Both the position numbers and the translations under genes were made by a program. Positions 6,901-28,942 of a stretch of DNA of 40,000 nucleotides are shown one piece after another. Every line of letters begins with the position of its first letter. The stretch's first letter is position 1. The notes under the pieces are model-generated. The model saw nothing but the letters and a program-made list of their open reading frames with translations. It was not told the origin of the DNA and did no database searches. The stretch covers positions 205,536 through 245,535 of the forward strand of contig CAVWOB010000017.1 in NCBI GenBank assembly GCA_963756335.1, given 5' to 3'. The DNA is from an uncultured Alphaproteobacteria bacterium (lineage in GTDB: Bacteria; Pseudomonadota; Alphaproteobacteria; Rhizobiales; Rhodomicrobiaceae).

Positions 6901-9900
6901 TCGAAAGATTTGTCCCCGGAGGACGTTGCAGAAGCTTGTAGGCGGCAGCGTTGCCGGTCATCTCGGTGCAGGCGGCGTCTTTCGCGATAAGCACCGCGGC
7001 CGGAATCGCTGCAAGTATCGTCTCCAGTTCATGCCGCTTTTGCCTTTGCAGCACCTCCGCCTTGCGAAGCGCCTCCTCGGCCTGCTTGCGCCCGGTAACG
7101 TCGAGACTGATGCCTGAAATGCGCAAGGGCGCCCCATCGGCGCCATAGTCGACTTTGCCCAGCGCCTCCACCCAGCGCATCTCGCCCGAGGGAAGGGGCA
7201 CGCGGTATTCCAGCTTGAATTCGGGCTCCCCTTTCGAAAGCGCGTGGAAGCTCAATGTCTCGACTTTCGGCCGATCGCTGGGATGCACGCAATCGAGCCA
7301 TTCGCCGTAGCCGGGCGAGCCGAGCTTCGGATCGCGGCCATTCAACTCGCAGCAATCCTCCGACCAGATAATGCGCCTCCCGGGAATATCGCATTGCCAC
7401 GCAGCGGCGCCGGCGCCTTTCAGCGAGAAGCGAAGCCGCTCCTCGCTTTCGCGCAACGCTTCCTCCGCGCGTTTATGGGCCGTGATGTCGATGTTGATGC
7501 CGGACGCGCGCAGCGGCGAGCCGTCCTCGGCGTAGTCCACCTTTCCCAGCCCTTCCAGCCAGCGAGTCTCGCCCGTCGGCAGCACGACGCGATATTCAAG
7601 CTTGAATTCGGGGATCCGCCCGATGAGGGCCTTAAGGTTTTCCTGCTCGACCCTGACGCGATCGTCCGGGTGTATGCATTGGAGCCACCCATCGTAGTCC
7701 GGAGAACCGAGCTTCGGATCGCGCCCGTGCACCTCGCAACATTCCGGCGACCAGATCAATTGCTTCGCTGGAATATCGACCTGCCAGGCGCCCGCGTGCG
7801 CGCTTTTAAGGCAGAAGAGAAGCCGCTCCTCGCTCTCGCGCAGCGCCTCCTCCGCCTGTTTGCGTTCCGTGACGTCGAGATTGATGCCGAACATGCGCAG
7901 CGGCGAGCCGTCCTCCGCATAGTCGACATTCGCCAGAGCGTCGAGCCAGCGCACCTCTCCGGAGGGACGCAGGATACGATACTCGGCTCTGTATTCGCTC
8001 GACCGCTTTTCGAGCACGTCGGAGATGCTTTTCGCGGCCCTTGCGCGGTCGTCGGCGTGCAGACATTCAAGCCAGTCGGAGGAGCTGGGCGGCTGGATGC
8101 AATTCCAATCGCGCCCGTAAAGCTCGCAGCTTTCCCGCGATCCGAATAGGATGTCGCTCTGAATGTCCCACCGCCATGGCGCCGCGCCGGCGCCCCGAAC
8201 GGAAAGGCGGAGCAGCTCCTCGCTCTCGCGCAGCGCCTCCTCGGCGCGCTTGCGTTCCGTGATGTCGAGATTGAGGCCCCACATCCGAACCGGAGAGCCA
8301 TCCTCGGCGTATTCGACTTTGCCGAGCGAATCGAGCCAGCGCACCTCCCCCGAAGGGAGCACGATGCGATACTCGGTCCTGTGTTCGACCACCCCTCTCT
8401 CGAAAGCTTCGAAGAGATCCCTTTCGGTTTTTGCGCGTTCGTCCGGATGCAGGCACCCGACCCAATCGTCGTAACGATAGGGCTTGGCGGGATTGGGATC
8501 GCGCCCGTAAAGACGGTAGCTTTCCGGCGACCCGAACGCTTCGCCCGTCTTGATCTCCCACCGGTACGGCGCCGCCCCGGCGCCTCTCATCGAAAGGCGA
8601 AGAAGCTCCTCGCTCTGGCGCAGCGCTTCCTCGGCCTGCTTGCGCGCGGTGACGTCGAGGCTGATGCCCGATACGCGAAGCGGCGAGCCATCGGCTGCAT
8701 ATTCGACGTTCGCCCTGACGTCGAGCCAGTGCACCTCGCCCGAAGGGAACACGACGCGGTAGTCATCCCTGTATTCAAGGGAACGCTTCGCGAAGATATC
8801 CAAAGCCGTGCCGTCGACCCTTGCGCGATCGTCCGGGTGGAGGCGCCGATGCCAATCGTCGAACTTCCTCGGCCCACCGGCGCCGGCCCCGCATCCGTAA
8901 AGCCGGTAGGCGTCCGGCGATCCGATGAAGACGCCCGCTGGAACGTCCCATCGCCAGGCTGCGGCGCCCGTGCTTTGCATCGAGAGGCGGAGCAGTTCCT
9001 CGCTCTCGCGCAACGCTTCCTCCGCCCGCTTGCGGGCCGTGATGTCGATCATGGCGCAGGTGACGCCGGCGATCTTGCCCGAGCGGTCGCGCAAGGGGTC
9101 GGCGAGCAGGTCGTAGATGCGGTCCACGCCGCCGATGCGAACGGCGATTTCGGCGCGCTGGCTTTCCCCGGTGAGGATCGCCTTGCGCTTGATCGCCTGG
9201 CTTGCGGCGGCGTCCTCCGCCCGCTCGAAGACCTCCGCTTCGGTCTTGCCAATCAGCTGAGACGGGCAAAAACAGGTGTTGTAAACCCAGGTGTGGCGCA
9301 GATCGAGATCCTGGGACAGGACCGCGATCGGCGAGCCCTTCAGCGCGACCTCGAAGCGTTCGGTGGCGAGCCGCAGCTCCTCTTCCGCGCGCGCTCGCTC
9401 CACCGCCTGCCAGACGCGGTCGAGCGTGTCGCGCGCGAGCGCTGCTTCCTCTTCGGTCCATTGGCGCGGCGCCGTTACCCCGACAAGCAGGAACGCGCGC
9501 GGCCTGCCTTCGCGCAGGAGCGGCGCCAAAATCCCCGACCGCGCTCCAATCGCTTTGGCGGCGGCTTGCGCGCCCGCGTCCGCGGCAATGCGCTCATCTG
9601 TCAACGTGTCCTCGACGGTGGTGGCGCCCCCGGCAAGGAGGAGTTCGGTAATTCGGCTTGCTGGAAAATGCGGATGCCTGCCAAGCAATGACTCTAAATC
9701 GCCAGTGGCGCTCCATGCGCTTTCCGCGAGAATGGTTTCGCTATCTTGCCGAAATTCCCCCACCCCCGCGACACCGGCGCCAAGTTCCAGGCCGATGGCC
9801 TCGCAGGCAATGCCGACCATCTCGCGCGGCGTTTTCGCAGTCCGAAGCCGCTCATCCAGATTGAGGAAGTAGCGGTCGCGCCTTTCCCTGTCGCGGCGGG

Positions 9901-13765: not shown

Positions 13766-13826
13766 GCCACCCGGCCGGGTCGCCGGGAATCCATGACGAA
13801 ACTTGCACGTACTTGGATATGGATCC

Positions 13827-13843
13827 CCGATAAGCCGCGCGAG
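13827..13843. repeat. Left copy of the direct repeat flanking the casposon-like element (putative target-site duplication)
   Basis: CCCCGATAAGCCGCGCGAG occurs at 13825-13843 and again at 28924-28942. Sequence diverges immediately outside the repeat: the left copy is preceded by ggat while the right copy is preceded by the TIR end, and the left copy is followed by the TIR start while the right copy is followed by cctgtc. A 17-bp parse (CCGATAAGCCGCGCGAG) makes both element termini symmetric. Confidence 0.8.
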
Positions 13844-15768
13844 GGGGGAGTGAGGGGGGGCCGCAACGCTCCTGTTTTGCGCACACTTAGCCGCACGAGT
13901 TAAGCGCGCTTTAAAAACTCTCGAAAAATTCCGCCATAAAATCGCGCACACGAAAAACGTGCGCAGAAATTTTCGACAAATCCGAAGCGGTTGTTTCACG
14001 CACACGTTCTGCGAGCATGTGTCTGAGCCTGCGTGTGAAGTGCATGTTTCACGCACGCTTCCCGGCAAGCATGTTTTGCGCAGCGCATGTTTCACGCACA
14101 TAAAATGCGCGCTATAATTTCGGGCAAGTTTTCTGCGCGTGGTGGAAAAGCCGCGTCAAGATGCGCGGCGAGCGAAGTGCATAATATACATGTGAGAGAG
14201 TGTGAGAGAGCTGTGTGTGGCGTGTAATGTGTTCGCGTTGCGCGCGGTAGAATGCATCATGCAAGTCGCGAGTAATTTCGAACAGAAGCAAGAACGCATT
14301 ACTTAAGACGCGTCTACATTTTCGCCTTATGTTGGTCGGGTCGAAAATTGATCAAGTTAATGTGCTGATTTGCATGAGAACAACTTAGCAGAACGTGTTT
14401 AACAGAGTGCTAATTTCGACTTCGGCTGTTGCATTTGGCGCGAGCTGGTGCGGGCCGCGTGAGGCATGCGGTATGCGGCATGTGGCATGCGGCATGCCAG
14501 TTGTTTCACAAGAGCTTGCGTGAAACGCGGCGCGCCATAGGGTTGCGCCGGGCAGGCGCTTTCGGATTGTATACAATCTGTGGAGCATCGCGCCGTCGGC
14601 CAGCGCCGGGCCATCGCCCCGAACGTCGCTGTCGGACTGCGCCTTGCCGCCAGTCTGCATCGCCCAGTCCCTCGCGGCCAACGCCGGGCGGTCGCCTCGA
14701 ACGTCGCCGCCGGTCTGCGCCGCGCCGTCGGTCCGCATCGAGCTGGCGCTCGCGGCCAGCGCCGGGCGGTCGCCCCGAACGTCGCCGCCTGTCCGCGCCT
14801 CGCCGCCGGACTGCATCGAGCTGGCGCCCGCGGCCAGCGCGGGGCCATCGCCCCGAACGTCGCCGCCGGTCTGCGCCGCGCCGCCGGACTGCATCGAGCT
14901 GGCGCTCGCGGCCAACGCCGGGCGGTCGCCCTGAACGTCGCCGCCTGTCCGCGCCTCGCCGTCGGACAGCATCAGGCGGTCGCTCTGAACGTCGCCGCCG
15001 GTCTGCGCCGCGCCGCCGGACTGCATCGAGCTGGCGCTCGCGGCCAACGCCGGGCGGTCGCCCCGAACGTCGCCGCCGGACTGCGACGGGCGGTCGCTCG
15101 CTGCCAGCGCCGGGCGGTCGCCTCGAACGTCGCCGCCGGTCTGCGCCGCGCCGCCGGTCCGCATCGAGCTGGCGCCCGCGGCCAGCGCGGGGCCATCGCC
15201 CCGAACGTCGCCGTCGGACTGCGCCTTGCCGCCGGACTGCATCGAGCTGGCGCCCGCGGCCAACGCCGGGCGGTCGCCCTGAACGTCGCCGCCTGTCCGC
15301 GCCTCGCCGTCGGACAGCATCAGGCGGTCGCTCTGAACGTCGCCGCCGGTCTGCGCCGCGCCGCCGGACTGCATCGAGCTGGCGCTCGCGGCCAACGCCG
15401 GGCGGTCGCCCCGAACGTCGCCGCCTGTCCGCGCCTCGCCGTCGGTCCGCATCGAGCTGGCGCTCGCGGCCAGCGCCGGGCCATCGCCCCGAACGTCGCC
15501 GCCGGACTGCGACGGGCGGTCGCTCGCGGCCAACGCCGGGCGGTCGCCCTGAACGTCGCCGCCTGTCCGCGCCGCGCCGCCGGTCCGCATCGAGCTGGCG
15601 CTCGCGGCCAGCGCCGGGCGGTCGCCCCGAACGTCACCGCCTGTCCGCGCCTCGCCGCCGGTCCGCATCGAGCTGGCGCTCGCGGTCAACGCCGGGCGGT
15701 CGCCCCGAACGTCGCCGCCGATCTGCGCCTCGCCGCCGGACTGCATCGAGCTGGCGCTCGCGGCCAGC
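13844..15768. repeat. Left terminal inverted repeat (TIR-L): ~750-bp unique subterminal segment plus a tandem module array
   Basis: Reverse-complementary to 26886-28925. For 13844-14934 every ORF boundary pair checked obeys x+y=42769 and the mirrored ORF translations are identical (e.g. 14644-14934 + versus 27835-28125 -; 14399-14848 - versus 27921-28370 +). Confidence 0.9.
14598..15768. repeat. Tandem array inside TIR-L: 16 GC-rich modules of 54, 60 or 78 bp
   Basis: 16 copies of the core GGCGGCGACGTTCRRGGCGAYSGCCCGGCGYTGGCC (seen here as its complement, ...gaacgtcgcc...). All six frames are open across the array. Confidence 0.9.
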
Positions 15769-15879
15769 AAGGCTCTTCAGGGTCGTGAACGGACGTGCCG
15801 ATTTTCTCGCGATCCCATACGCGCCGAGTCGGCTTCGGGATCCCAATGCGGTCTTATCCGAGACGGCGGAAGAATTAGG

Positions 15880-18800
15880 TCATGTGTTCGGAAACGTTAA
15901 TTCGCATCGCAGTCCTTCAGGCTCGTAGCGGAGATCGCAATCGCCATCGAGTTCATGTTGCGTAATCTGCCTGATAAGATTGGTGCCGAAGCCTTCGCGG
16001 TCCGGCTGTTTCACAAGCGGGCCGCCGCTTTCCTGCCAAATGAGGCGGATCGTGGCCTTACGTCTTATGTTCAAGCGCACGGAGACCCTGCCTCCATTCT
16101 GGGAGAGTGCGCCGTATTTTGCAGCGTTGGTTACGAGTTCATGAAGGGCGAGATAAGCCGAGAGCGCCTTCCGGGGCGGAAGCTCCACCTTCGGCCCTTC
16201 CACGATCACCCGCGCTGGATCGAAAGGCTGGGTGGCGTCTCGCACAAGCTGCGCAAGGCTGACCGGGGTCCAATCGCGCTTCAACAGCAGACTGTGAGCC
16301 TGCGCGAGCGCGGCAAGCCGACCTTGAAATACGTCCCCGAACTCTTCCAGAGACGCGCTATTGCTTAGTGTTTGCGATGCCATGGCTTGCGCAACGGAGA
16401 GTGCATTCTTGACGCGATGGTTGAGCTCATGCATCAGCAAATTCTGATACGCTTCGTCTTGTTTGCGTTCGGTGATGTCCTCGATCACCAGCAAAATGAG
16501 TTGAGCTTCGTCCACCCTTTGGCCGCTCAGCAGCATGGTCCTCTTGCCGATTGTTTCGAAGGTGTGCTCAACCAGTTGATTAGAAAAGTTTTCAAAGCGT
16601 TCCAGAACAGCGGTCAGAAGCGTGCGCAACAAAGGAATATTCCATTGACCGTTGCCAAGGTCGTAGACGAGGCGATGCAATGTCTGATCTGCGCTCACCT
16701 GAAAGGATTTGTAGAACGCTGGGTTGGCTGAAATCACGCGCAGATCGGGGTCGAGCACCAACAGCGGGGTCGGCACTGCTTCGACGACGCTCTCGGCGTA
16801 ATGCCGGGCAGCCTCGATGGCGGTGATATCGAAGAACGTAACCACCAGGCCGTCAATGCGGTCGTCACGGGTACGGTAGGGTTGAATACGACGGACGAAC
16901 CAACGGTCATTCCTGCTTCGAACCTGTTTTTGGGAAGGCGTCAGGGTGCGGAGCGTGCGCTCGCAATCCGCCGTAAAATCTTCATCCGCCGTTTTCTGGG
17001 AGAAGTCGGAAATTCGACGGCCGATATCGCTCGAGCGAACATTGAATAGGTTGACAACGCCCGGGGAGAACCAGCGAATGTGCAGGTCCCGGCCCAGAAA
17101 GAGCGTGGCCACGTCTGTGCTGCCCAGCAGATTGTCGAGATCATTGGTGCGCTCGTACAACTCGTCCACTTTGGCGCGCAACTGGTTGTTGACGGTGTTC
17201 AGCTCCTCATTAAGGGACTGCAGTTCCTCCTTCGAGGTCTCGAGCTCCTCGTTCGCGGCGCGAAGCTCTTCGTTCATGGACATGATTTCTTCGTTATAAG
17301 ACTTCAGCTCTTCCTGGGAGCGGTTCATGACGTCGGCCGACGTTATGATTTCCTCCCGAAGAAACTTGACCTCCGCTTCAAGTTCCTGCTCGCGCGACAA
17401 GTCTGGCGCGACCTCTGCTTTGCTCGCCATGCCGCTGGCCTTGGCCTCAACAAAACTGACAAGAAACCTGATTTCGCCATCCTGTTTGAGCGGGACAACT
17501 TCAACAAGAACGGGCACTGTTTTGCCGTCCTGACGGAACTGGCCCTGCTCCGTTTGCGGTGCGTTCGTCTCTTTTGCCTTTTCGATGATCCGGCGCAGGC
17601 GTAGGTCCAGTCCGTCGCGCGCCATTGCAAGGAGATCCTGGGTCGGTTCTCCCGATTGCGGCTTAAGGAACCGCTCCGTGGCGCCGTGGTAATAAAGCGT
17701 CTGAAGATTGCTGTCGATCAGAACGGAGGGCGGAGCGTAGCGGCCGGCCAGCGTCTTTAAGGCTTCCTCGGTTCTGCGCACAGGCATGCGTTGCCCTGTC
17801 TCCGGCGCTGGGTAGTTGGAGAGATACCGGCTTCCCCCCTGTGGAGAAGGAAAATCGACGATATCGTGACGGGTTGCACCGAGTTGGCGATAGAGCCGCC
17901 ACTTCTTGGAAATAGTCTCGAACAGGAACTCGGCTCCACCCAGAGACTCGGCGCTCCCGAGAAACAAATATCCCCCCTCGGAAAGAGCGAAATGGAACAA
18001 CCGCAAGACCTTCTGTTGGACCTCAGATTGAAGATAGATCAGAACGTTACGGTAAACGATGAGGTTTAGTCGTGAAAAGGGCGGGTCCTGAACGGCATTT
18101 TGAGGTGCGAATACCACGCATTCCCGAAGCTTCCGCGAGACCGCAGCAATATCGTCTCCGCGCTCGAAATAGTCCCGTCTCAGCTTTTCTGGCAGGAGCT
18201 GCAAGGCGGCTTCGGGGTAAAGCCCTGCCCGCGCTCGGCTCAGTGCGGTCGGCGACGGGTCGGTGGCGAAAATCTCGATGGGAAAGCGCTTCTTCTGAGC
18301 CTTCATCTCCTCCATCAGAAGCATGGCGAGCGAGTATGCTTCCTCGCCCGAAGCGCACCCAGGCGCCCAGGCGCGAAAGGGCTGGTCGGTGTCATGCGCT
18401 GCGATGAGCGGGCGGAGGGCCTCGTCGCGAAGCGTGTTCCAGGCTTCCTGATCGCGGAAGAAACCGGTTACGGCAATAAGCAGGTCGTTGGTAAGGGCCT
18501 GTATTTCCTCCCGTTTCTCGTGCAGGTATTTGACATAAGCGTCCCAGCTGTTCAGCCGCAGCAAGCCGACCCGGCGGCCGATGCGCCGCTGCAGCGTTCC
18601 CGTCTTGTAGTTTCGGAAGTCGATCGAGGTGTTTGCGCGCAATGTCCCGAGGATCGCCTTGAACGCCTTCTCCTTTCCCGCCTCATTTTGCACAGCTGAA
18701 GTATTTGCCTCTTGCTGCTGCTCACCTGCAGCGGGAGAGCGGAGATGCTCCGCGTAGCGTGCTATCGTTGCGATCATCTCCTCCGGAAGCAGCACGGAGT

Positions 18801-19326
18801 CCACGAACCCCGTACCAATCGCACGCCTTGGCATCTCGCCGAATTCTGCAGAGTCCGGGCTTTGCGCGAGGACGAGGCCGCCTCCTTCGCGAACCGCGGA
18901 CAGGCCTGCAGAGCCGTTGGACCCCGTCCCAGACATGACGACGGCAATCGCCCTCGATCCGGCGTCCTCGCCGAGCGACGCAAAAAGTTCGTCCACGGGA
19001 TGAGCGATCCCCGCCCCCCGCTTATGTGGCTCCAGCCATCCTTGCCGCACCACCAGCGCTTGACCGGGAGCAAGAACGTACACATGCCCAGCTTCGATCC
19101 GCGTCCTGCCAGCGACCTCGGAGACCGAAAGGCGGACCGTGCGCTGCAACAGCTCCGCCAGATGGCTTTTGTGATCGGGAGAGAGGTGCGATATGACGAC
19201 AAACGCCATATCTATGGGATCGCCCGACGCTTCGACGGCCTCAAAAAATGCCGTGAACGCCGTCAGGCCCCCGGCGGACCCGCCCAGGGCGACGATAGGA
19301 AAAGCGTTGGCCGGTGCAACCGTCAT
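15880..19326 (-). CDS. CheB-methylesterase / CheR-methyltransferase / PAS / HWE-type histidine kinase fusion protein (cargo gene of the element)
   Basis: 1148 aa. N-terminal CheB catalytic domain (VALGGSAGG..., MSGTGSNGSAG). CheR SAM-methyltransferase (VTGFFRD, WAPGCASGEEAYSLAMLL, IFATD). A coiled-coil, PAS modules, HisKA_2-type H-box LMHELNHRVKNALSVAQAM and HELVTNAAKYGAL. Confidence 0.85.
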   Translation of the reverse strand: MTVAPANAFPIVALGGSAGGLTAFTAFFEAVEASGDPIDMAFVVISHLSPDHKSHLAELLQRTVRLSVSEVAGRTRIEAGHVYVLAPGQALVVRQGWLEPHKRGAGIAHPVDELFASLGEDAGSRAIAVVMSGTGSNGSAGLSAVREGGGLVLAQSPDSAEFGEMPRRAIGTGFVDSVLLPEEMIATIARYAEHLRSPAAGEQQQEANTSAVQNEAGKEKAFKAILGTLRANTSIDFRNYKTGTLQRRIGRRVGLLRLNSWDAYVKYLHEKREEIQALTNDLLIAVTGFFRDQEAWNTLRDEALRPLIAAHDTDQPFRAWAPGCASGEEAYSLAMLLMEEMKAQKKRFPIEIFATDPSPTALSRARAGLYPEAALQLLPEKLRRDYFERGDDIAAVSRKLRECVVFAPQNAVQDPPFSRLNLIVYRNVLIYLQSEVQQKVLRLFHFALSEGGYLFLGSAESLGGAEFLFETISKKWRLYRQLGATRHDIVDFPSPQGGSRYLSNYPAPETGQRMPVRRTEEALKTLAGRYAPPSVLIDSNLQTLYYHGATERFLKPQSGEPTQDLLAMARDGLDLRLRRIIEKAKETNAPQTEQGQFRQDGKTVPVLVEVVPLKQDGEIRFLVSFVEAKASGMASKAEVAPDLSREQELEAEVKFLREEIITSADVMNRSQEELKSYNEEIMSMNEELRAANEELETSKEELQSLNEELNTVNNQLRAKVDELYERTNDLDNLLGSTDVATLFLGRDLHIRWFSPGVVNLFNVRSSDIGRRISDFSQKTADEDFTADCERTLRTLTPSQKQVRSRNDRWFVRRIQPYRTRDDRIDGLVVTFFDITAIEAARHYAESVVEAVPTPLLVLDPDLRVISANPAFYKSFQVSADQTLHRLVYDLGNGQWNIPLLRTLLTAVLERFENFSNQLVEHTFETIGKRTMLLSGQRVDEAQLILLVIEDITERKQDEAYQNLLMHELNHRVKNALSVAQAMASQTLSNSASLEEFGDVFQGRLAALAQAHSLLLKRDWTPVSLAQLVRDATQPFDPARVIVEGPKVELPPRKALSAYLALHELVTNAAKYGALSQNGGRVSVRLNIRRKATIRLIWQESGGPLVKQPDREGFGTNLIRQITQHELDGDCDLRYEPEGLRCELTFPNT

Positions 19327-19338
19327 TCGCGGATGCTA

Positions 19339-19626
19339 TCAGATTGGGGGGGGGGGCGCTTGGAAATTTTCCAATATTGCAACGCTATTTGCCACATACT
19401 TGTAGAGAACGGCACGGGGAAGATGCGGGCGCAAATTCCAATACTTGGCCGCAATTCCGAGAACAACTTCTTCCGTGTAGCTTGAGATGTTGGCGGTGTC
19501 GAGCACGCCCACTATGAGATCCGAAAGCAGGCATAACCGCTTGAGCGCTCTTCCAAGGCCCGCTTCTTCAGCTGACGGCCTTTGCCCGACTTTGAGCGCC
19601 GGTTCCGACCTAGGCGCGTCTGCCAT
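19339..19626 (-). CDS. Hypothetical 95-aa protein between cas1 and the kinase gene
   Basis: ORF only. It starts 14 nt after the cas1 stop with no clear SD. Its C-terminal PPPP is encoded by the 11-nt homopolymer tract at 19346-19356. Confidence 0.3.
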   Translation of the reverse strand: MADAPRSEPALKVGQRPSAEEAGLGRALKRLCLLSDLIVGVLDTANISSYTEEVVLGIAAKYWNLRPHLPRAVLYKYVANSVAILENFQAPPPPI

Positions 19627-19640
19627 CGGCTTGCGCTATC

Positions 19641-20855
19641 TTATCGCCGCGAAGTCGTCCTTCCATCGCCCCGCCTAACAGCGCTCTCAAGCCACTCGCA
19701 TAATTCGCTCAAGTCTCGTTGCGTCGCCAGCGCGCGACCCGCCACGATCCGCGCGATTTCCGGCGCGAGCCGAACGACGCCGTTGTTTGAGAGCGTGAAT
19801 TCCTTACGCCGGAAAGTGCGGTTCGCGGTGAAACTCAGAATTCGCGCATCGATGGGGCCGCGCTGCAATTCCAGCGCGTCATAGACGAGACTCGCGCGAT
19901 ACTCTTTCAAGAGATGAAGAAACCCTATGGCGGTATCGAAGCCCCAAGCCGTTAAAGCGCGTTCGATCTGTGCGGCGGCGACCATGTAAGCATAGTTCAA
20001 TATCGCGTTGAAGGGATGGAGAGCGTGACGCGGCGAAGGATTACAGAGCGAAGCGTTGCGGCTATCCCAAGAATCCCAAGCTTCCGGCCAATCTTTTCCA
20101 AGACCGCGAAAAACGAGCTTCCTTCTAAGTCCAATGAAATGCGCCTGTGCAGCTACACCTTCGGCAAGCAGGAGGTTCGGCAAATCAGTCGCCATCTTGA
20201 CCCGCGAGAGATGCGCGTGCGTCTCGCGTCTACTGAGAAAGCCGCATTCGCAGCTCGCGAGAATCTTCTGTGTGACGATGGCGGACGCGACCGGCAAGGG
20301 GTTTGAGAAAGCGGCGTACTGCGCCAGCCGAAGTTTTGCTTGCTTGGCTGGCGGCGTGGTGAGCATGACGGAAGCCGTGTTATGCCCGGTCGCGACGAAC
20401 AGCCCAACCTCATGACGCGCCAGCCATTTCAGCGCCTCTCCTGTGACATGGAAACCGGGCGCTTCCGCTATGATGCTTTCGAAAGGCGGCAGTCCAGGCA
20501 TATATGAGATTTCGCGGTCCGCGTCGAAGACTACCAGTTGCTTCTTTCGAACTGAAAGCCCGGAACACGGCCCCTGTAGAATGAGCACTTTGGCATTGAC
20601 CGCTCTAGACGATGCACGCCAGTAGGCTGGCAGTTTTAGGCTTGCTTGACCGGTCCGTCTTAACGCATCCGGTGTTAACCCGCATTCCTTGACCGCCCGC
20701 ATAGTCGCGTTGACTTTATAGCCATGCTTCTCGGCGAGTTTTGCGTAGGATAATCCCGAAGCCCTTCCTTGAAGCATCGAATTCAGAACGTTTTCGGGAA
20801 TGTCGATGCGAGGCATGAGAAAATCCGTCGAAGAAAACCAGGTGCTAATGTACAC
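19641..20855 (-). CDS. cas1: Stand-alone Cas1 homologue (putative casposase)
   Basis: 404 aa. The C-terminal half reads ...LLLAEGVAAQAHF...HPFNAILNYAYMVAAAQIERALTAWGFDTAIGFLHLLKEYRASLVYDALELQRGPID. This matches the Cas1 alpha-helical domain pattern N..LNY.Y...G.d...GFLH...R.SLvyD..E..Rp.vD, with the Glu/His/Asp metal-binding positions present. The N-terminal half looks like a beta-rich Cas1 N-domain (VLILQGPCSGLSVRKKQLVVFD...). An alternative start lies at 20816. Confidence 0.8.
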   Translation of the reverse strand: MYISTWFSSTDFLMPRIDIPENVLNSMLQGRASGLSYAKLAEKHGYKVNATMRAVKECGLTPDALRRTGQASLKLPAYWRASSRAVNAKVLILQGPCSGLSVRKKQLVVFDADREISYMPGLPPFESIIAEAPGFHVTGEALKWLARHEVGLFVATGHNTASVMLTTPPAKQAKLRLAQYAAFSNPLPVASAIVTQKILASCECGFLSRRETHAHLSRVKMATDLPNLLLAEGVAAQAHFIGLRRKLVFRGLGKDWPEAWDSWDSRNASLCNPSPRHALHPFNAILNYAYMVAAAQIERALTAWGFDTAIGFLHLLKEYRASLVYDALELQRGPIDARILSFTANRTFRRKEFTLSNNGVVRLAPEIARIVAGRALATQRDLSELCEWLESAVRRGDGRTTSRR

Positions 20856-21134
20856 GCACGAAATTACAAGCGCGTAAATGCGCGCACTTTTCGGCGTCTC
20901 TCAAAAACGTCTCAACAAAACATGCCACCACAGACAGACATAAAAGAGAACTCTACTTTGTTCTAGCTGATTTGGCTAGAGCTAAGCCTTTGCCTTTCTT
21001 GGTACTCCTGTCCGTATGCGATGAAATTACAACACTTAGAACCTGACTTAGAACCTGACAGGCCGCGTTAACCTTTGGTTAACCCACGCCGTCTCAAATC
21101 AGGTTAATGTAGCAATAGAAGGAAGGAGAAAGCT
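20856..21134. promoter_or_regulatory. Divergent control region between cas1 (-) and the RHH/PolB operon (+)
   Basis: AT-rich 279-bp spacer. Perfect tandem 12-mer CTTAGAACCTGA x2 (21035-21058). Palindrome GTTAACCtttGGTTAAC (21067-21083). GAAATTACAA occurs twice (about 20866 and 21023). Strong SD gaaggaaggag precedes the 21135 ATG. Confidence 0.5.
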
Positions 21135-21419
21135 ATGCCTAAGCATGAAAAACAGGTCGCTCTGCAAATCTACCCTGTAGATTTCGAATACATCACAGAA
21201 CTATCCACGGAACGCGGCGTGTCGAAGCGCCACATTTTACGTTCGGCGCTTAGATCGGGCTTGCGCATGTTGCTCGAAAAACACTCGAATACAGCGTTGC
21301 TCGATCAATATGACGCCGCTCTCAAGCAAGGTTTTGAGAAAGAGTGTCGCGAGAAAGCTGATAGGCTTCGCAAAACTTGGGCGCTCGATTTCAGCGAGGC
21401 TGACAATGTTGCCGTTTGA
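21135..21419 (+). CDS. Small ribbon-helix-helix (CopG/Arc-like) DNA-binding protein, putative
   Basis: 94 aa with a strong SD. The N-terminal stretch KQVALQIYPVDFEYITELSTERGVSKRHILRSALRSGLRML fits a beta-strand/helix/helix RHH layout. Confidence 0.5.
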   Translation: MPKHEKQVALQIYPVDFEYITELSTERGVSKRHILRSALRSGLRMLLEKHSNTALLDQYDAALKQGFEKECREKADRLRKTWALDFSEADNVAV

Positions 21420-21687
21420 CGAAAAGATTAGATATGCCGTCGATCTTTCACCTGAGGAACATCGTGTTCTTTGGGCTTTGGCACGCGAGTGCGGCTTGGT
21501 ACGCTCCGACTTGGCGGCGATAGCCATCGTGCGCGGCTTACCGCTCATTTCTGATGGTGAGAAGCTGACGGCTTACAAGGCGCGCCGCCGGGAAGCGCTC
21601 AATCTGCGGCGCAAGTTCAATCCCGATCTTGATGAGCGCGATTTTGAGCCGTCGAGAACTGAGACCGGACATGCGCACGCTTCCTGA
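21406..21687 (+). CDS. Second small RHH-like protein, putative
   Basis: Internal ATG at 21406 overlaps the upstream stop by 14 nt. IRYAVDLSPEEHRVLWALARECGLVRSDLAAIAIVRGL again resembles the RHH pattern. Confidence 0.4.
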   Translation: MLPFDEKIRYAVDLSPEEHRVLWALARECGLVRSDLAAIAIVRGLPLISDGEKLTAYKARRREALNLRRKFNPDLDERDFEPSRTETGHAHAS

Positions 21688-22216
21688 AACGAACATCACC
21701 GGTTTCCGGCTTATCGACAAGGGCGCACCCGCCGTTGCAGAACGTATCCAAGTTTTTTTAAGCGCGCCTATGCGGATGTATCGCGCCTCGCATTACGATG
21801 CTCTCGCGCGCCGTATCGAAATGTCGCTCCACCCGAGAGCCGATGTTTTATCCGCGCGCGAAATGTTTCTTGATTGGCGAGATTGGTGCGTCAACTACCG
21901 AGAGCGCATCGCAAGGGTCTCTATCGTTTACATCTTGACTGATCTGCACGGGTATATCGGCGCTGGCCAGTTCGCCGAACTTGCGGAGATGATTAATCTC
22001 CCGAACGAATGTGATCGGCATCCCGTCCGCAAAATGATCGCCGTCCGCCCCTATACCCGTAGCATGCATGCCGATAACTTAGAGTTCTGCGAACGTGGTC
22101 ATTTTGAGATGCTTCCGAATTGGGATTTTCAGCGCTGCGCAAAATTCAGTAAGAGCTTGCCGAGTTACCATATCAGTTACGTCGAATTAGTCCGCAAAGA
22201 AAAAAAAGGCGGCTGA
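21671..22216 (+). CDS. Hypothetical protein with a Cys/His-rich C-terminal part
   Basis: ORF 21629-22216; the ATG at 21671 overlaps the upstream gene end. No recognisable family. The C-terminal segment CDRHP...HADNLEFCERGH...C might bind metal. Confidence 0.45.
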   Translation: MRTLPETNITGFRLIDKGAPAVAERIQVFLSAPMRMYRASHYDALARRIEMSLHPRADVLSAREMFLDWRDWCVNYRERIARVSIVYILTDLHGYIGAGQFAELAEMINLPNECDRHPVRKMIAVRPYTRSMHADNLEFCERGHFEMLPNWDFQRCAKFSKSLPSYHISYVELVRKEKKGG

Positions 22217-22227
22217 AAACGCCGCCT
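22207..22227 (+). terminator. Possible hairpin terminator/attenuator after the 195-aa ORF
   Basis: AGGCGGC-tgaaaac-GCCGCCT stem-loop spanning the stop codon, followed by a weakly T-rich tail (tgtaaatctgtctt). Confidence 0.3.
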
Positions 22228-22520
22228 TGTAAATCTGTCTTCGTGTAAGCCCGAGTTAAACCACAAAATCGAGTGTCACAAGCATTCGACTTTGTCAAGG
22301 CTATCAGCGGAACCCTCAATTCCGCATCGTTAGAAGGAGACCTTCTTTAATGACCGCTAGTTTCAGTCGCCAAACCATCAACCGAACAGTCAAAAAGGAC
22401 TCCAAATCATGTCCCAAAATAACAACAGCACGTCTGCGCCGCAAGAAAAACTAAGGCGCTCGCACAAAATTTCTATGACCGCGACCGGCGCTTTCGCCTC
22501 GATAAAAGGAGGCTGCCGTC

Positions 22521-23195
22521 ATGGCTAAAAAGCTGACCCGCGCCGAAAAAAGAATTGCCGGGGCCAAAGCGGCGGATTTCCGTAAGCTGACAAAGGCCGA
22601 ACTCGAAAAGCTTGGCCATTCGGCTAAATCATCGCGCTATATAGAGATCGGCAAGCGCGTCGCCAAAAACACGAAGACGATTTCGAAGCGCCTTTTCACG
22701 GTCAAGATGACCGGCGCGTCACCGGAAGCTCTCGCGAGAGCGCATGCGGAAGGCGAACTGATCTATAAGAGCCGGAAGAACCAAGATGCAGCCGAGAAGC
22801 AGCGACGCACACGACTTAAACAAAAGGTTGAACGCAACGCGAAACGCGAGCTTGAATTAGCCGATAGGAAGTACAAACCATTATCAGCGAAACAATCCGA
22901 ACGCGCGACGTTTAACTTCGAAAAGAAGGTCTCGAATATTCGATATGCCCAACCCGAATTGAATGCGCGAGAAAAGCAGTCTTGGCGAGTTAGCCGGTAT
23001 ATTGGCGATCAAGCTGTAAACGATTATCGCCAAAAGGTCAGCGATCCAAACCATTTCGTTCCTCACGGTCGCTATCAAAACCTGCTCGATATCGCGCGCG
23101 CAGCGGGTGATCCTAACATTGGGCGGCTCTTGCAGTCGAAAAGCGATAAACGCGCAAGCGATGAAGATGACTTAGAAATTGATGAGGCGGCCTAA
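22521..23195 (+). CDS. Highly basic Lys/Arg-rich 224-aa protein, translationally coupled to PolB (nucleic-acid-binding; terminal-protein candidate)
   Basis: Strong SD aaaggagg. The stop overlaps the PolB start (TAATG at 23192-23197). Lys/Arg-rich throughout. No recognisable family. Confidence 0.6.
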   Translation: MAKKLTRAEKRIAGAKAADFRKLTKAELEKLGHSAKSSRYIEIGKRVAKNTKTISKRLFTVKMTGASPEALARAHAEGELIYKSRKNQDAAEKQRRTRLKQKVERNAKRELELADRKYKPLSAKQSERATFNFEKKVSNIRYAQPELNAREKQSWRVSRYIGDQAVNDYRQKVSDPNHFVPHGRYQNLLDIARAAGDPNIGRLLQSKSDKRASDEDDLEIDEAA

Positions 23196-25996: not shown

Positions 25997-26047
25997 AAGC
26001 TTAAGTCTCGTGCGACGCGATTTGGTGACCATGCAGGAAACACGTAA

Positions 26048-26308
26048 ATGAACAACACCTTTCAGAATTACATGCTCAAACTCGGGCCTCTGTTCGGCGG
26101 CGTCATGTTGCCGAACCCAAGCCCAGCGGAAGTCAATCTTTCGAATATCTATGCAGAGTTGAACCATAGTTCGGATGCCGAAATACACGCAAGAGATTTT
26201 GTTCGCGCGCGCAAAAGCGTTGAAAATGTGCTGTACGCGGTCGTACGCATCATGAAACTCATCAGAACTTCTTTGGAGGTTGCATGCCGTTCGCTCTTAT
26301 CATCATAG
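26048..26308 (+). CDS. Hypothetical small protein
   Basis: 86-aa ORF with a weak SD (agga). It overlaps the downstream membrane-protein gene by 25 nt. Confidence 0.35.
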   Translation: MNNTFQNYMLKLGPLFGGVMLPNPSPAEVNLSNIYAELNHSSDAEIHARDFVRARKSVENVLYAVVRIMKLIRTSLEVACRSLLSS

Positions 26309-26796: not shown

Positions 26797-26885
26797 GGAT
26801 ACGTTTTTCAGGACCGGAACAAGCCACCCGTTGTAGTTGAGGCCCCAACAGCGTCCTTCTCAAATGCAACGCTTCGCTGCTACGG

Positions 26886-28171
26886 CGCAGATTGCGAGCG
26901 ACCGCCCGTCGCAGTCCGGCGGCGACGTTCGGGGCGATGGCCCCGCGCTGGCCGCGAGCGCCAGCTCGATGCGGACCGGCGGCGCGGCGCAGACCGGCGG
27001 CGACGTTCGAGGCGACCGCCCGGCGCTGGCCGCGAGCGACCGCCCGTCGCAGTCCGGCGGCGACGTTCGGGGCGATGGCCCGGCGCTGGCCGCGAGCGCC
27101 AGCTCGATGCAGTCCGGCGGCGCGGCGCAGACCGGCGGCGACGTTCAGAGCGACCGCCTGATGCTGTCCGACGGCGAGGCGCGGACAGGCGGCGACGTTC
27201 AGGGCGACCGCCCGGCGTTGGCCGCGGGCGCCAGCTCGATGCAGTCCGGCGGCAAGGCGCAGTCCGACGGCGACGTTCGGGGCGATGGCCCCGCGCTGGC
27301 CGCGGGCGCCAGCTCGATGCGGACCGGCGGCGCGGCGCAGACCGGCGGCGACGTTCGAGGCGACCGCCCGGCGCTGGCAGCGAGCGACCGCCCGTCGCAG
27401 TCCGGCGGCGACGTTCGGGGCGACCGCCCGGCGTTGGCCGCGAGCGCCAGCTCGATGCAGTCCGGCGGCGCGGCGCAGACCGGCGGCGACGTTCAGAGCG
27501 ACCGCCTGATGCTGTCCGACGGCGAGGCGCGGACAGGCGGCGACGTTCAGGGCGACCGCCCGGCGTTGGCCGCGGGCGCCAGCTCGATGCAGTCCGGCGG
27601 CAAGGCGCAGTCCGACGGCGACGTTCGGGGCGATGGCCCGGCGCTGGCCGCGGGCGCCAGCTCGATGCGGACCGGCGGCGCGGCGCAGACCGGCGGCGAC
27701 GTTCGAGGCGACCGCCCGGCGTTGGCCGCGAGGGACTGGGCGATGCAGACTGGCGGCAAGGCGCAGTCCGACGGCGACGTTCAGAGCGACCGCCTGATGC
27801 TGTCCGACGGCGAGGCGCGGACAGGCGGCGACGTTCAGGGCGACCGCCCGGCGTTGGCCGCGAGCGCCAGCTCGATGCAGTCCGGCGGCGCGGCGCAGAC
27901 CGGCGGCGACGTTCGGGGCGATGGCCCCGCGCTGGCCGCGGGCGCCAGCTCGATGCAGTCCGGCGGCGAGGCGCGGACAGGCGGCGACGTTCGGGGCGAC
28001 CGCCCGGCGCTGGCCGCGAGCGCCAGCTCGATGCGGACCGACGGCGCGGCGCAGACCGGCGGCGACGTTCGAGGCGACCGCCCGGCGTTGGCCGCGAGGG
28101 ACTGGGCGATGCAGACTGGCGGCAAGGCGCAGTCCGACAGCGACGTTCGGGGCGATGGCCCGGCGCTGGCC
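26886..28171. repeat. Tandem array inside TIR-R: 18 GC-rich modules of 54, 60 or 78 bp
   Basis: 18 copies of the core ...GGCGGCGACGTTCRRGGCGAYSGCCCGGCGYTGGCC. Relative to the left arm it contains an extra 288-bp block (3x78+54), and the inner units are shuffled. Confidence 0.9.
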
Positions 28172-28925
28172 GACGGCGCGATGCTCCACAGATTGTATAC
28201 AATCCGAAAGCGCCTGCCCGGCGCAACCCTATGGCGCGCCGCGTTTCACGCAAGCTCTTGTGAAACAACTGGCATGCCGCATGCCACATGCCGCATACCG
28301 CATGCCTCACGCGGCCCGCACCAGCTCGCGCCAAATGCAACAGCCGAAGTCGAAATTAGCACTCTGTTAAACACGTTCTGCTAAGTTGTTCTCATGCAAA
28401 TCAGCACATTAACTTGATCAATTTTCGACCCGACCAACATAAGGCGAAAATGTAGACGCGTCTTAAGTAATGCGTTCTTGCTTCTGTTCGAAATTACTCG
28501 CGACTTGCATGATGCATTCTACCGCGCGCAACGCGAACACATTACACGCCACACACAGCTCTCTCACACTCTCTCACATGTATATTATGCACTTCGCTCG
28601 CCGCGCATCTTGACGCGGCTTTTCCACCACGCGCAGAAAACTTGCCCGAAATTATAGCGCGCATTTTATGTGCGTGAAACATGCGCTGCGCAAAACATGC
28701 TTGCCGGGAAGCGTGCGTGAAACATGCACTTCACACGCAGGCTCAGACACATGCTCGCAGAACGTGTGCGTGAAACAACCGCTTCGGATTTGTCGAAAAT
28801 TTCTGCGCACGTTTTTCGTGTGCGCGATTTTATGGCGGAATTTTTCGAGAGTTTTTAAAGCGCGCTTAACTCGTGCGGCTAAGTGTGCGCAAAACAGGAG
28901 CGTTGCGGCCCCCCCTCACTCCCCC
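26886..28925. repeat. Right terminal inverted repeat (TIR-R)
   Basis: Reverse complement of 13844-15768. Ends ...CGTTGCGGCCCCCCCTCACTCCCCC, immediately followed by the direct repeat. Confidence 0.9.
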
Positions 28926-28942
28926 CCGATAAGCCGCGCGAG
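28926..28942. repeat. Right copy of the flanking direct repeat (putative target-site duplication)
   Basis: CCGATAAGCCGCGCGAG is identical to 13827-13843. Because of the C-run the identity can be read as 15 to 19 bp. Confidence 0.8.

What the first reader, a model, noticed from the sequence alone, without database searches (positions are those of the whole stretch)
13844..15768. Exceptionally long (~2 kb) composite TIRs: identical unique ends plus diverging tandem-module arrays
Each arm has a ~750-bp unique subterminal segment followed by tandem modules of 54, 60 or 78 bp sharing the core GGCGGCGACGTTCRRGGCGAYSGCCCGGCGYTGGCC. The outer ~1.09 kb of the two arms is co-linear. Every ORF boundary pair I compared sums to 42,769 and the mirrored ORF translations are identical. 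Further in, the right arm (26,886-28,925) carries an extra 288-bp block (3x78+54). The module counts differ, 16 on the left and 18 on the right. So the termini are kept identical while the arrays expand and contract. The arrays are also far more GC-rich than the element core. Reiterated subterminal repeats could be multiple casposase/accessory-protein binding sites. They could also be replication-origin iterons or a substrate for arm homogenisation.
Basis: seen in the sequence. Interest (0 to 1): 0.75.

Follow-up and report, generated by a model that had tools for sequence, protein, structure and literature searches.

The report
Casposon with 2-kb repeat-filled arms
A Cas1-carrying, polymerase-encoding transposon (casposon) in a GC-rich bacterial genome has mirror-image ends about 2 kb long, over three times the longest reported for casposons; the inner halves are GC-rich non-coding tandem repeats that gain and lose units, while the outer 1.15 kb stays identical on both sides.

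Summary
A 15,084-bp element (13843-28926) carries a Cas1 casposase and a PF03175-type PolB. It has a 15-bp target-site duplication and oligo-C 3' tips, so it is a casposon. Its inverted arms are 1.93 and 2.03 kb; published casposon TIRs are 25-602 nt (median 56). Each arm has three parts: a G-rich tip, about 750 bp of unique subterminal DNA with its own iterated 12-mers, and a 79%-GC array of 54/60/78-bp modules (16 on the left, 18 on the right). The outer 1155 bp is 100% identical between arms, and identity decays inward.

An independent insertion in another metagenome (L051, Cas1 about 72% identical, own TSD) has the same design, with homologous 96-bp modules (7.3 versus 4.8 copies). A partial contig (L001) breaks inside such an array.

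The arrays are not coding. pN/pS is about 1 in every frame, there is no codon-like period-3 autocorrelation, and an 18-nt sub-repeat explains the 3n lengths. The only GC3-rich open frame is the least conserved of the six. They do not fold, and they do not resemble the tip.

Best reading: non-coding minisatellite "iterons" in a tip-homogenised TIR, probably protein-binding. That function is not demonstrated. This is a new variant of a known kind.

The parts
13828..13842 (.). Left copy of the 15-bp target-site duplication CGATAAGCCGCGCGA. The maximal direct repeat is CCCCGATAAGCCGCGCGAG, which overlaps the TIR tip by a few nt.
28927..28941 (.). Right copy of the 15-bp target-site duplication
13843..15770 (+). 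Left composite TIR (about 1.93 kb): tip, unique subterminal segment and array
26893..28926 (-). Right composite TIR (about 2.03 kb)
13843..14997 (.). Zone of 100% identity with 27772-28926 (1155 bp from the tip). It includes the outermost ~5 modules.
13843..13885 (+). Terminal motif GGGGGGAGTGAGGGGGGGCCGCAACGC..TTTTGCGCACAC. It gives an oligo-C 3' end on the opposite strand, is homologous to the L051 tip, and is mirrored at 28884-28926.
   Evidence: 35/39 identical; oligo-C requirement from PMC6614799
13843..14590 (+). Unique subterminal segment (GC about 0.51-0.60), mirrored at 28179-28926. It has conserved islands relative to L051, separated by diverged DNA with indels that are not multiples of 3.
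13992..14099 (+). Three exact copies of the 12-mer TGTTTCACGCAC (13992, 14045, 14088), plus degenerate copies at 13873 and 14516(-). Mirrored at 28670-28777.
   Evidence: (11 matches vs 3.06 expected, 10 of them in the arms)
14503..14526 (.). Palindrome GTTTCAC-N10-GTGAAAC abutting the array, conserved in both L051 arms. Mirrored at 28243-28266.
14591..15770 (-). Left array: 16 modules of 54/60/78 bp, GC about 0.79, 18-nt sub-period
26893..28178 (+). Right array: 18 modules of 54/60/78 bp, with 288/348-bp higher-order repeats
19641..20855 (-). Casposase: Cas1 domain at residues 94-370, plus an N-terminal HTH-like region of about 90 aa
23195..25996 (+). Family B DNA polymerase of the organellar/viral (protein-primed) Pfam type
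   Evidence: relatives
21135..23195 (+). Block of small proteins conserved across the lineage (94 aa, ~93 aa, 195 aa, 224 aa basic). They have homologues in L001 and L051, and the first two look RHH-like by inspection. These are candidate DNA binders.
   Evidence: no family hits
15880..19326 (-). Cargo gene: CheB-CheR-PAS-HWE histidine kinase fusion, lying between Cas1 and the left array

Best explanation
The region is one of two genuine ~2-kb composite terminal inverted repeats of an integrated casposon.

Shown:
- Each arm has three tiers: (i) a G-rich tip giving an oligo-C 3' end, the part a casposase needs for integration; (ii) about 750 bp of AT-richer subterminal DNA with short iterated motifs and a conserved palindrome; (iii) a 79%-GC non-coding minisatellite built from an 18-nt sub-repeat, organised into 54/60/78-bp modules and 288/348-bp higher-order units.
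- The design is inherited. A related casposon inserted elsewhere has homologous 96-bp modules in both arms.
- The arrays change by module-scale gain and loss, while the arms are kept identical from the tip inward (100% over 1155 bp, decaying further in).

Inferred:
- The tip-to-centre identity gradient reflects end-initiated copying or repair. This could be panhandle or template-switch correction during replication by the element's own protein-primed-type PolB, or gene conversion between the inverted arms.
- The arrays expand and contract by slippage or unequal exchange.
- The module consensus is held at DNA level because it is a reiterated binding platform ('iterons') for an element-encoded DNA-binding protein. 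Candidates are the HTH-bearing casposase, the two small RHH-like proteins and the 224-aa basic protein.
- That platform would serve a step other than integration, such as end pairing or excision, replication of the excised linear form, or blocking outward read-through.
For: Casposon identity: Cas1 and PF03175 PolB; the best PDB match of the Cas1 homologue is 6OPM, not the CRISPR Cas1s; a 15-bp TSD; oligo-C tips as in the characterised A. boonei substrate.

Real and inherited architecture: L051 has its own 14-bp TSD, a homologous tip, TIR segments at 95-96% identity and 96-bp arrays of 7.3 vs 4.8 copies. The short-read contig L001 ends inside such an array and has a module on the PolB side. L052 (PolB 48% identical) has GC-rich 91- and 37-bp arrays, then an AT-rich iterated segment, then a C-rich tip on its PolB side.

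Non-coding:
- Variable columns are spread 9/8/8 over the codon phases.
- pN/pS is 0.74-1.25 in all frames in the window, and 1.54 for frame A in L051.
- There is no codon-like period-3 autocorrelation, unlike the host and cargo genes. Instead there is a dominant 18-nt sub-period in both lineages, which explains the 18-bp length steps.
- Frame A is the least conserved of the six frames between lineages, at 36.6 bits against 40-54.
- The ORF 'tail' has 5-, 2- and 1-nt indels relative to L051.
- There is no ATG/SD start at the inner junctions.
- No protein homologues were found.
- L052's periods are not multiples of 3.

DNA-level constraint: the 78- and 96-bp consensus modules align at 72% identity, 5 SD above shuffles. 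That is as high as the genes (72-80%). The bulk of the subterminal DNA is barely above the shuffled control (53% vs 48%).

The long arms are not needed for integration: only 5 terminal nt are required in A. boonei, and the authors suggest TIR interiors serve excision or replicative intermediates (PMC6614799).

Identity gradient from the tip.
Against: No binding protein, transcript or replication intermediate has been observed, so the function is inference.

The arrays turn over quickly: about 80% identity between L001 and L051, whose cores are 92% identical. More distant casposase relatives manage with 42-71-bp TIRs and no arrays. The arrays are therefore dispensable for casposons in general and could be tolerated junk.

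All window and L051 periods are multiples of 6, and frame A has GC3 0.92 > GC1 0.77 > GC2 0.67. Codon-constrained alignment is nearly as good as free alignment (61-64 vs 69). A past or present coding origin is therefore not rigorously excluded.

L051's arms are only 95-96% identical, so tip homogenisation is not always perfect, or that assembly is error-prone.

The PolB is assigned to the protein-primed type only through a Pfam match (3.3e-9). There is no PDB hit, and no terminal protein has been identified.
Confidence: 0.5

Rival explanations
1. Neutral or selfish minisatellite. The arrays are functionless GC-rich satellite DNA that arose at the inner edge of the TIR. It persists by slippage and unequal exchange, and is carried along by descent.
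For: Copy number and higher-order structure differ between arms and between elements. The arrays diverge faster than the genes. Other casposons of the wider clade lack arrays and have 42-71-bp TIRs. Variation within arrays looks unconstrained. L052's arrays share no recognisable sequence with these.
Against: The arrays sit at the same position on both arms in at least two independently inserted elements that have different cargo. The module consensus is conserved at 72%, 5 SD above shuffles and similar to coding genes, whereas most neighbouring non-coding DNA has decayed to background. The extreme GC (0.79 in a 0.50 element) is maintained in both lineages.
Confidence: 0.3
2. Protein-coding repeat. 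Each arm carries an outward-reading gene (frame A: 14385-15770 minus strand; 26837-28384 plus strand) for a Ser/Gly/Asp-rich repetitive, disordered protein, duplicated because it lies inside the TIR.
For: All periods (54/60/78/96) are multiples of 3. Frame A is open in both arms, runs in the same direction as the neighbouring genes, and is the only open frame with GC3 > GC1 > GC2. Phase is preserved between the 78- and 96-bp modules. A pipeline called partial frame-A ORFs in L051.
Against: pN/pS is about 1 or higher, and variation shows no codon-phase bias. There is no period-3 autocorrelation, and the 18-nt sub-repeat explains the 3n steps. Frame A is the worst-conserved frame, below frames that contain stops. 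The tail has frameshifting indels, and L051 has 85/95/97-nt modules. There is no ATG/SD start. There are no homologues and no self-hit in 5.8 G or 1.84 G proteins, although low-complexity filtering weakens that last point. Four of the six frames are open simply because of the GC content.
Confidence: 0.1
3. Assembly artefact. The inverted duplication or the array lengths were created by mis-assembly of repeats.
For: Arrays 1.1-1.3 kb long inside a 1.15-kb perfect inverted repeat are hard to assemble. Short-read contigs of the relatives break at the arrays (L001, L053). Read data are not available here.
Against: The same architecture, with its own TSD, appears in an independent assembly (L051). 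The clean 15-bp TSD sits exactly at the repeat boundaries. The internal higher-order structure is coherent. The element sits in a contig of about 100 kb.
Confidence: 0.04
4. Casposase-generated array. The modules are reiterated terminal recognition sites, tandem solo-TIR insertions, or a proto-CRISPR-like product of repeated Cas1 integration.
For: Casposon TIRs have been proposed as ancestors of CRISPR repeats, and artificial casposons integrate in tandem (PMC4779613, PMC9939771). One 11-mer (CCGCAACGCTC) is shared between the window tip and an L051 module.
Against: Similarity between module and tip is not above shuffled controls: within-element p = 0.56-0.99, and the cross-element 11-mer gives p about 0.05 among 8 tests and lies in the opposite orientation. 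There are no unique spacers. The 18-nt sub-period and the 54-96-bp modules do not match the 14-15-bp duplication that Cas1 makes. There is no Rfam or CRISPR-like hit.
Confidence: 0.03

Closest known systems
Casposons (Krupovic et al. 2014, PMC4046053; families 1-4)
   Same: Cas1-family integrase plus family B polymerase, TIRs, a 14-15-bp TSD, oligo-C 3' tips, variable cargo, and insertion just downstream of a gene.
   Different: Published TIRs are 25-602 nt (median 56), with 31-59 or 225 bp in M. mazei. Here they are 1.93-2.03 kb, and more than half of each is tandem array. I found no description of arrays in casposon TIRs in the searchable literature. No HNH gene was detected, and the PolB hits the protein-primed Pfam family, so the element does not fit the family 2/3 description neatly.
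Protein-primed linear replicons with long TIRs (adenovirus, fungal/plant mitochondrial linear plasmids, Polinton/Maverick and Tetrahymena Tlr elements). From my own knowledge, not checked here.
   Same: A self-encoded B-family polymerase, replication origins in the TIRs, and TIR identity maintained from the ends inward by panhandle or strand-switch repair. Tlr elements are reported to have long TIRs containing short tandem repeats.
   Different: No terminal protein and no free linear form are known for this element. It is integrated by Cas1, not by an rve integrase, and it is bacterial.
Foldback (FB) transposons of Drosophila and the tandem-repeat blocks in poxvirus/ASFV ITRs. From my own knowledge.
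   Same: Kilobase inverted termini made largely of tandem repeats. Copy number differs between arms and between copies, and there is a unique terminal part plus arrays.
   Different: Unrelated enzymes and hosts. Those systems have hairpin telomeres or other transposases. The similarity is architectural only.
Plasmid/phage iterons and the multiple subterminal transposase-binding sites of Tn7, Mu and plant Ac/En-Spm elements. From my own knowledge.
   Same: Reiterated short DNA motifs near the ends or origins that load several copies of a protein. The 12-mer TGTTTCACGCAC repeats fit this pattern best.
   Different: Classical iterons are about 17-22 bp, few in number and not 79% GC. Here there are 16-18 modules of 54-78 bp, and no binding protein has been identified.

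Membership tests
Casposon (superfamily) | Cas1-family integrase (casposase) not linked to a CRISPR array or cas2 | tested here: met
   PF01867 at 4.6e-27 over residues 94-370. The best PDB hit is 6OPM at 5e-15, against about 1e-7 for CRISPR Cas1s. There is no CRISPR or Rfam hit in the 40 kb, and no other cas gene among the element's ORFs.
Casposon (superfamily) | Family B DNA polymerase encoded in the element | tested here: met
   The 933-aa ORF hits PF03175 DNA_pol_B_2 at 3.3e-9. It has 102 homologues, and those with Pfam annotation nearly all carry PF03175.
Casposon (superfamily) | Terminal inverted repeats flanked by a target-site duplication of about 14-15 bp | tested here: met
   TIRs. 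The 15-bp direct repeat CGATAAGCCGCGCGA lies at 13828-13842 and 28927-28941. L051 has the 14-bp repeat CCCCGGACAGGCGA.
Casposon (superfamily) | Oligo-C 3' terminus, as required by the characterised A. boonei casposase | tested here: met
   The right end reads ...CTCACTCCCCCC(C). L051 ends in ...CTCCCCCCC and L052 in ...CTTCTCCCCCCC. The requirement comes from PMC6614799. Whether this particular enzyme uses the tip is not testable here.
Casposon family 3 (bacterial) / family 2 | HNH endonuclease gene present (stated for all family 2 and 3 casposons, PMC4046053) | tested here: not met
   No HNH family hit for any element ORF at E<=1 in Pfam or at E<=0.1 in PHROGs. A very divergent HNH cannot be excluded.
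Casposon family 3 (bacterial) / family 2 | Position in the Cas1 and PolB phylogenies | not tested
The relatives found are alphaproteobacterial MAGs, Kordiimonas, Methylobacterium and Nitrosomonas, at 25-39% identity.
Protein-coding tandem-repeat gene | Purifying selection, or at least preferential conservation, in one reading frame; codon periodicity; a start signal | tested here: not met
   pN/pS is about 1. There is no period-3 autocorrelation. Frame A is the least conserved frame. There is no ATG/SD start. Indels relative to L051 are frameshifting.
CRISPR array | Short direct repeats separated by unique spacers of similar length | tested here: not met
   The modules lie head to tail with no unique spacers. 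There is no Rfam CRISPR family hit.
Iterons / reiterated protein-binding sites | Repeated DNA motif conserved at DNA level (not RNA or protein level) near an origin or transposon end | tested here: met
   The module consensus is 72% identical between lineages, 5 SD above shuffles. There is no frame preference and no excess folding, with z from -0.03 to +1.05.
Iterons / reiterated protein-binding sites | Demonstrated sequence-specific binding by a replication or transposition protein | not testable with these tools
   Requires EMSA, footprinting or ChIP.
Protein-primed replicon with panhandle-homogenised TIRs | Terminal protein and a free linear form; TIR identity maintained from the ends | tested here: inconclusive
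   An identity gradient from the tip is observed, and the PolB is of the PF03175 type. No terminal protein was identified, there is no PDB homologue, and a linear form cannot be tested here.

The most novel reading that the evidence does not exclude
This alphaproteobacterial casposon lineage has evolved a dedicated, GC-rich iteron platform inside kilobase TIRs. An element-encoded DNA-binding protein loads onto it to pair the two ends and/or to drive protein-primed replication of the excised linear form. That would make it the first casposon with a recognisable cis-acting apparatus for the still-unknown excision and replication steps, and it would define a new casposon family (PF03175-type PolB, N-terminal-HTH casposase, no HNH).
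Probability: 0.3. Interest if true: 0.7.

Novelty: new variant of a known kind. Interest (0 to 1): 0.58.

Why it matters
How casposons excise and replicate is unknown. The only biochemistry available shows that integration needs just 5 terminal nucleotides, which leaves the role of TIR interiors open (PMC6614799).

This lineage has TIRs more than 3 times longer than any reported. They have a conserved three-tier layout and a clear tip-inward homogenisation gradient. That gives concrete cis-elements to test: the 12-mer repeats, the palindrome and the 54-96-bp modules. It also gives candidate binders and natural variation (16/18 versus 7/5 modules). The excision and replication question could therefore be addressed experimentally in bacteria.

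The finding also extends the known range of casposon architecture and hints at an undescribed bacterial casposon family. If the arrays turn out to be neutral satellite, the finding is a curiosity of concerted evolution inside a mobile element.

Tried and rejected
1. Coding repeat protein. Tested by codon-phase of variation, pN/pS in six frames, autocorrelation, conservation across lineages frame by frame, indel phase and start signals. Rejected as the main explanation. The 3n/6n lengths are explained by an 18-nt sub-repeat.

2. Protein homology of the array translations. A concatenated three-frame query against 5.8 G proteins, exhaustive phmmer of frame A against 1.84 G representatives, and an exact look-up of six ORFs all gave nothing. 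Caveat: partial frame-A ORFs called in L051 were not retrieved either, so sensitivity for this low-complexity sequence is poor.

3. Module as a reiterated terminal (casposase) motif. Not above shuffled controls.

4. Structured ssDNA/RNA. z-scores from -0.03 to +1.05, and no Rfam family.

5. Module array widespread elsewhere or derived from the host. There were 0 hits in viral contigs. The 23 hits in metagenome contigs are all single chance GC-rich matches of about 24-35 bp with no element context. Nothing else in the 40-kb window matches.

6. Arrays as a general feature of the casposase clade. The 22 loci at 25-39% identity have only 42-71-bp TIRs, or none detectable, and no arrays.

7. Retrieving the source contig or the 286-kb strain contig to compare array lengths between strains failed. 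Only short core fragments at 98.4% and 99.9% identity were obtained (L049, L050).

8. The inward sigma-70-like promoter in the subterminal segment is not conserved in L051, so I gave it no weight.

9. The small ORFs could not be annotated as RHH or terminal protein from sequence libraries.

10. L052's left arm was not found within the 22.8-kb locus, so it is unproven that its arrays lie in a TIR.
Full report
OBSERVATION. The inverted duplication is real. The repeat finder reports arms 13843-15099 and 27670-28926 (1257 nt, 99% complementary) plus many array-to-array matches. A direct comparison shows that the first 1155 nt from each tip are 100% identical (13843-14997 vs 28926-27772). A gapped alignment then gives 1205 nt at 99.1%, a 60-bp module indel, 304 nt at 99.7%, and blocks of 93%, 91.5%, 94% and 88% further in. 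This is an identity gradient running from the tips inward.

Parsing on the invariant GACGTTC anchor gives 18 modules on the right and 16 on the left, of 54, 60 or 78 bp. TRF adds higher-order periods of 288, 348 and 426 bp.

The core motif occurs 34 times in the window, only in the arms, against 0 expected. GC is 0.75-0.79 in the arrays, about 0.45-0.60 in the element core and about 0.60-0.70 in the host flanks.

WHAT THE ELEMENT IS. The repeats bound a 15,084-bp element (13843-28926) flanked by a 15-bp direct duplication, CGATAAGCCGCGCGA. Inside are:
- a Cas1 homologue (PF01867, 4.6e-27);
- a 933-aa family B polymerase that matches only PF03175, the organellar/viral, protein-primed type;
- a block of small proteins with no family hits;
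- a cargo CheB-CheR-PAS-HWE-kinase fusion.

The Cas1 homologue's best solved relative is 6OPM (5e-15), against about 1e-7 for CRISPR Cas1s. From memory, 6OPM is the Methanosarcina casposase. The 3' ends are oligo-C, the only TIR feature the A. boonei casposase needs (TCCCC; PMC6614799). There is no tRNA, CRISPR or Rfam family in the window. This is a casposon.

HOW UNUSUAL THE ARMS ARE. Krupovic et al. 2014 give casposon TIRs as 25-602 nt, median 56 (PMC4046053). M. mazei elements have 31-59 or 225 bp (PMC4779613), and a 2023 review still quotes 25-602 (PMC9939771). No indexed paper combines casposons with tandem repeats in TIRs. The arms here are 1.93 and 2.03 kb.

Among 22 more distant casposase loci (25-39% identity; alphaproteobacterial MAGs, Kordiimonas, Methylobacterium, Nitrosomonas), the detectable TIRs are 42-71 bp and none has such arrays.

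IS IT INHERITED OR AN ARTEFACT? The lineage is rare; only 21 Cas1 homologues were found among 5.8 G proteins.

The closest relative with DNA available is L001 (Cas1 72% identical, short-read contig). It ends inside a 96-bp-period array on the Cas1 side and carries one module on the PolB side.

L051 is a 24-kb contig from another assembly, and its Cas1 is in the same 90% cluster as L001's. It holds a complete element with its own 14-bp TSD (CCCCGGACAGGCGA) and a homologous tip. Its unique TIR segments are 95-96% identical between arms. GC-rich (0.78) 96-bp arrays of 7.3 and about 4.8 copies flank a core of 0.48 GC with different cargo.

L052 (PolB 48% identical) shows the same order on its PolB side: core, then GC-rich arrays of 91 and 37 bp, then an AT-rich iterated segment, then a C-rich tip. 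Its other arm was not found in the locus.

Core fragments 98.4% and 99.9% identical to the window occur in two other sequencing runs. The architecture is therefore a heritable feature of a small casposon lineage. Exact copy numbers in the window still need long-read confirmation.

CODING OR NOT? All periods are multiples of 3, and one open frame (frame A, reading outward) has GC3 0.92 > GC1 0.77 > GC2 0.67, so I tested coding seriously. The evidence against it:
- Variable columns fall 9/8/8 on the three phases.
- pN/pS is 0.74-1.25 in all six frames of the window modules, and 1.54 for frame A in the 96-bp modules.
- A real high-GC host gene shows uniform autocorrelation peaks at every multiple of 3 (0.31 vs 0.25). 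The arrays do not. They share a dominant 18-nt sub-period (0.45-0.49) in both lineages. This accounts for the 18-bp steps 60->78->96 and for 54 = 3x18.
- Codon-constrained alignment of the 78- and 96-bp consensus is nearly as good as free alignment, but a 6-nt unit does just as well.
- Translated in all six frames, frame A is the least conserved between the window and L051 (36.6 bits, 34% identity). The other frames score 40-54 bits, including frames with stops.
- The putative C-terminal tail has 5-, 2- and 1-nt indels relative to L051. L051 has 85-, 95- and 97-nt modules. The inner junctions lack an ATG/SD start.
- Four of the six frames are open simply because of the GC content.
- No protein in 5.8 G or 1.84 G sequences resembles any array frame. 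This is weak evidence, because partial frame-A ORFs called in L051 were not retrieved either.

I conclude that the arrays are non-coding (about 0.85-0.9).

WHAT CONSTRAINS THEM? The 78- and 96-bp consensus modules are homologous along their whole length: 72% identity, 5 SD above shuffles. This is similar to the genes (72-80%). The bulk of the unique subterminal DNA is near the shuffled baseline (53% vs 48%), apart from sharply conserved islands. Those islands are the tip (35/39 identical), a GACGCATTACTTA..ACGCG block, and a GTTTCAC-N10-GTGAAAC palindrome abutting the array.

The array strands do not fold better than shuffles, and the modules do not resemble the tip. The constraint therefore acts on duplex DNA sequence. 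The simplest reading is reiterated protein-binding sites.

The subterminal segment carries its own, more classical iterated motif: TGTTTCACGCAC, with 3 exact and 2 degenerate copies per arm (11 in the window vs 3.06 expected). L051 has a different motif there (GAAAGCGC/G), as expected for sites that co-evolve with a binder.

Candidate binders are the casposase's N-terminal HTH-like region (relatives carry PF13936/PF13384), two small RHH-like proteins (by inspection only) and a basic 224-aa protein. All are conserved in L001 and L051.

MECHANISM. Three things are shown: the three-tier arm, the module-scale gain and loss, and the tip-inward identity gradient.

The rest is inference:
- The gradient is what end-initiated copying or repair would produce. 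That could be panhandle or template-switch correction during replication by a protein-primed-type PolB, or gene conversion between the inverted arms.
- The arrays evolve by slippage or unequal exchange of 18-nt, module and higher-order units.
- Integration needs only the tip, so the interior most likely serves excision or end pairing, replication of the excised form, or insulation against outward read-through. In every element the arrays lie at the 3' end of outward-facing gene blocks.

I put about 0.5 on a functional DNA-level role, about 0.3 on tolerated satellite, about 0.1 on coding, and less than 0.05 each on artefact or casposase-generated arrays.

VERDICT. The structural interpretation is supported, and the functional suggestions are plausible but untested. 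This is a new variant of a known kind. It is a casposon lineage, possibly a new family given the PF03175-type PolB, the HTH-bearing casposase and the lack of a detectable HNH. Its kilobase composite TIRs contain non-coding GC-rich arrays. Interest is moderate to high for specialists in mobile elements and CRISPR origins, because it offers testable cis-elements for the unknown excision and replication steps.

Noticed in passing
window 15880-19326 (-): The casposon carries an 1148-aa CheB-CheR-PAS-PAS-HWE histidine kinase fusion as cargo (GC about 0.58, between core and host). L051 carries HSP70-like, 546-aa and AAA proteins in the same slot, and L001 carries a 216-aa protein. The cargo slot lies between Cas1 and the Cas1-side array.
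   Followed up: partly
window 23195-25996 (+); whole element: The PolB matches only PF03175 (protein-primed/organellar-viral type) and has no PDB hit by sequence. No HNH endonuclease was detected, although HNH is reported in all family 2/3 casposons. The lineage may be an undescribed bacterial casposon family.
   Followed up: partly
L001 346-3009 vs L051 1573-3528: The elements are mosaic. The L001 and L051 casposases fall in one 90% cluster and their Cas1-side cores are 92% identical. Yet L001's PolB is only 47% identical to the window's, while L051's is 70%, and the two PolB regions do not align by blastn.
   Followed up: no
window 19641-20855 (-), N-terminal ~90 aa: The casposase has an N-terminal HTH-like extension. 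Relatives P0010 and P0011 carry Pfam HTH_38/HTH_23 there. This is a candidate sequence-specific binder of the subterminal repeats.
   Followed up: no
window 13992-14099 and 28670-28777: The 12-mer TGTTTCACGCAC is repeated 3 times exactly (plus 2 degenerate copies) in each arm's unique segment. L051 has a different iterated motif (GAAAGCGC/G, 4 copies) at the equivalent place.
   Followed up: partly
window 14503-14526 / 28243-28266; L051 ~607-634: The palindrome GTTTCAC-N8-10-GTGAAAC lies immediately outside the array and is conserved between lineages. Next to it is a 7-bp GGCATGC x5 microsatellite (14463-14497 / 28272-28306).
   Followed up: partly
window 28651-28678 (-), mirrored ~14091-14118 (+); 28804-28826 (+): There is an inward-facing sigma-70-like promoter (TTCACG-16-TATAAT, 10/12 match) about 250 bp from each tip, and an outward-facing terminator-like hairpin about 100 bp from the tip. 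The promoter is not conserved in L051.
   Followed up: partly
window 13824-13842 vs L051 ~36-56: The two independent insertions have similar targets (CCCCGATAAGCCGCGCGA vs CCCCGGACAGGCGA, both starting CCCCGRA). The window insertion lies 62 nt downstream of a histidine-kinase gene's stop codon. This hints at target-site preference.
   Followed up: no
L052 15134-16032: A more distant element has unrelated GC-rich arrays (37 bp x3.1; 91 bp x4.9 at 96% identity). These are followed by an AT-rich 81-bp x2.3 repeat and a C-rich tip, then IS elements. The matching left arm was not found within the locus.
   Followed up: partly
window 7819-8776: A 390-bp tandem repeat (2.5 copies, 75% matches) in the host flank, probably repeated domains within a gene.
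   Followed up: no
window 26284-26796 (+): A 170-aa predicted membrane-like protein just inside the right array matches PHROG 14462 (unknown function, 6.7e-16). This is the only small element ORF with a clear family hit.
   Followed up: no
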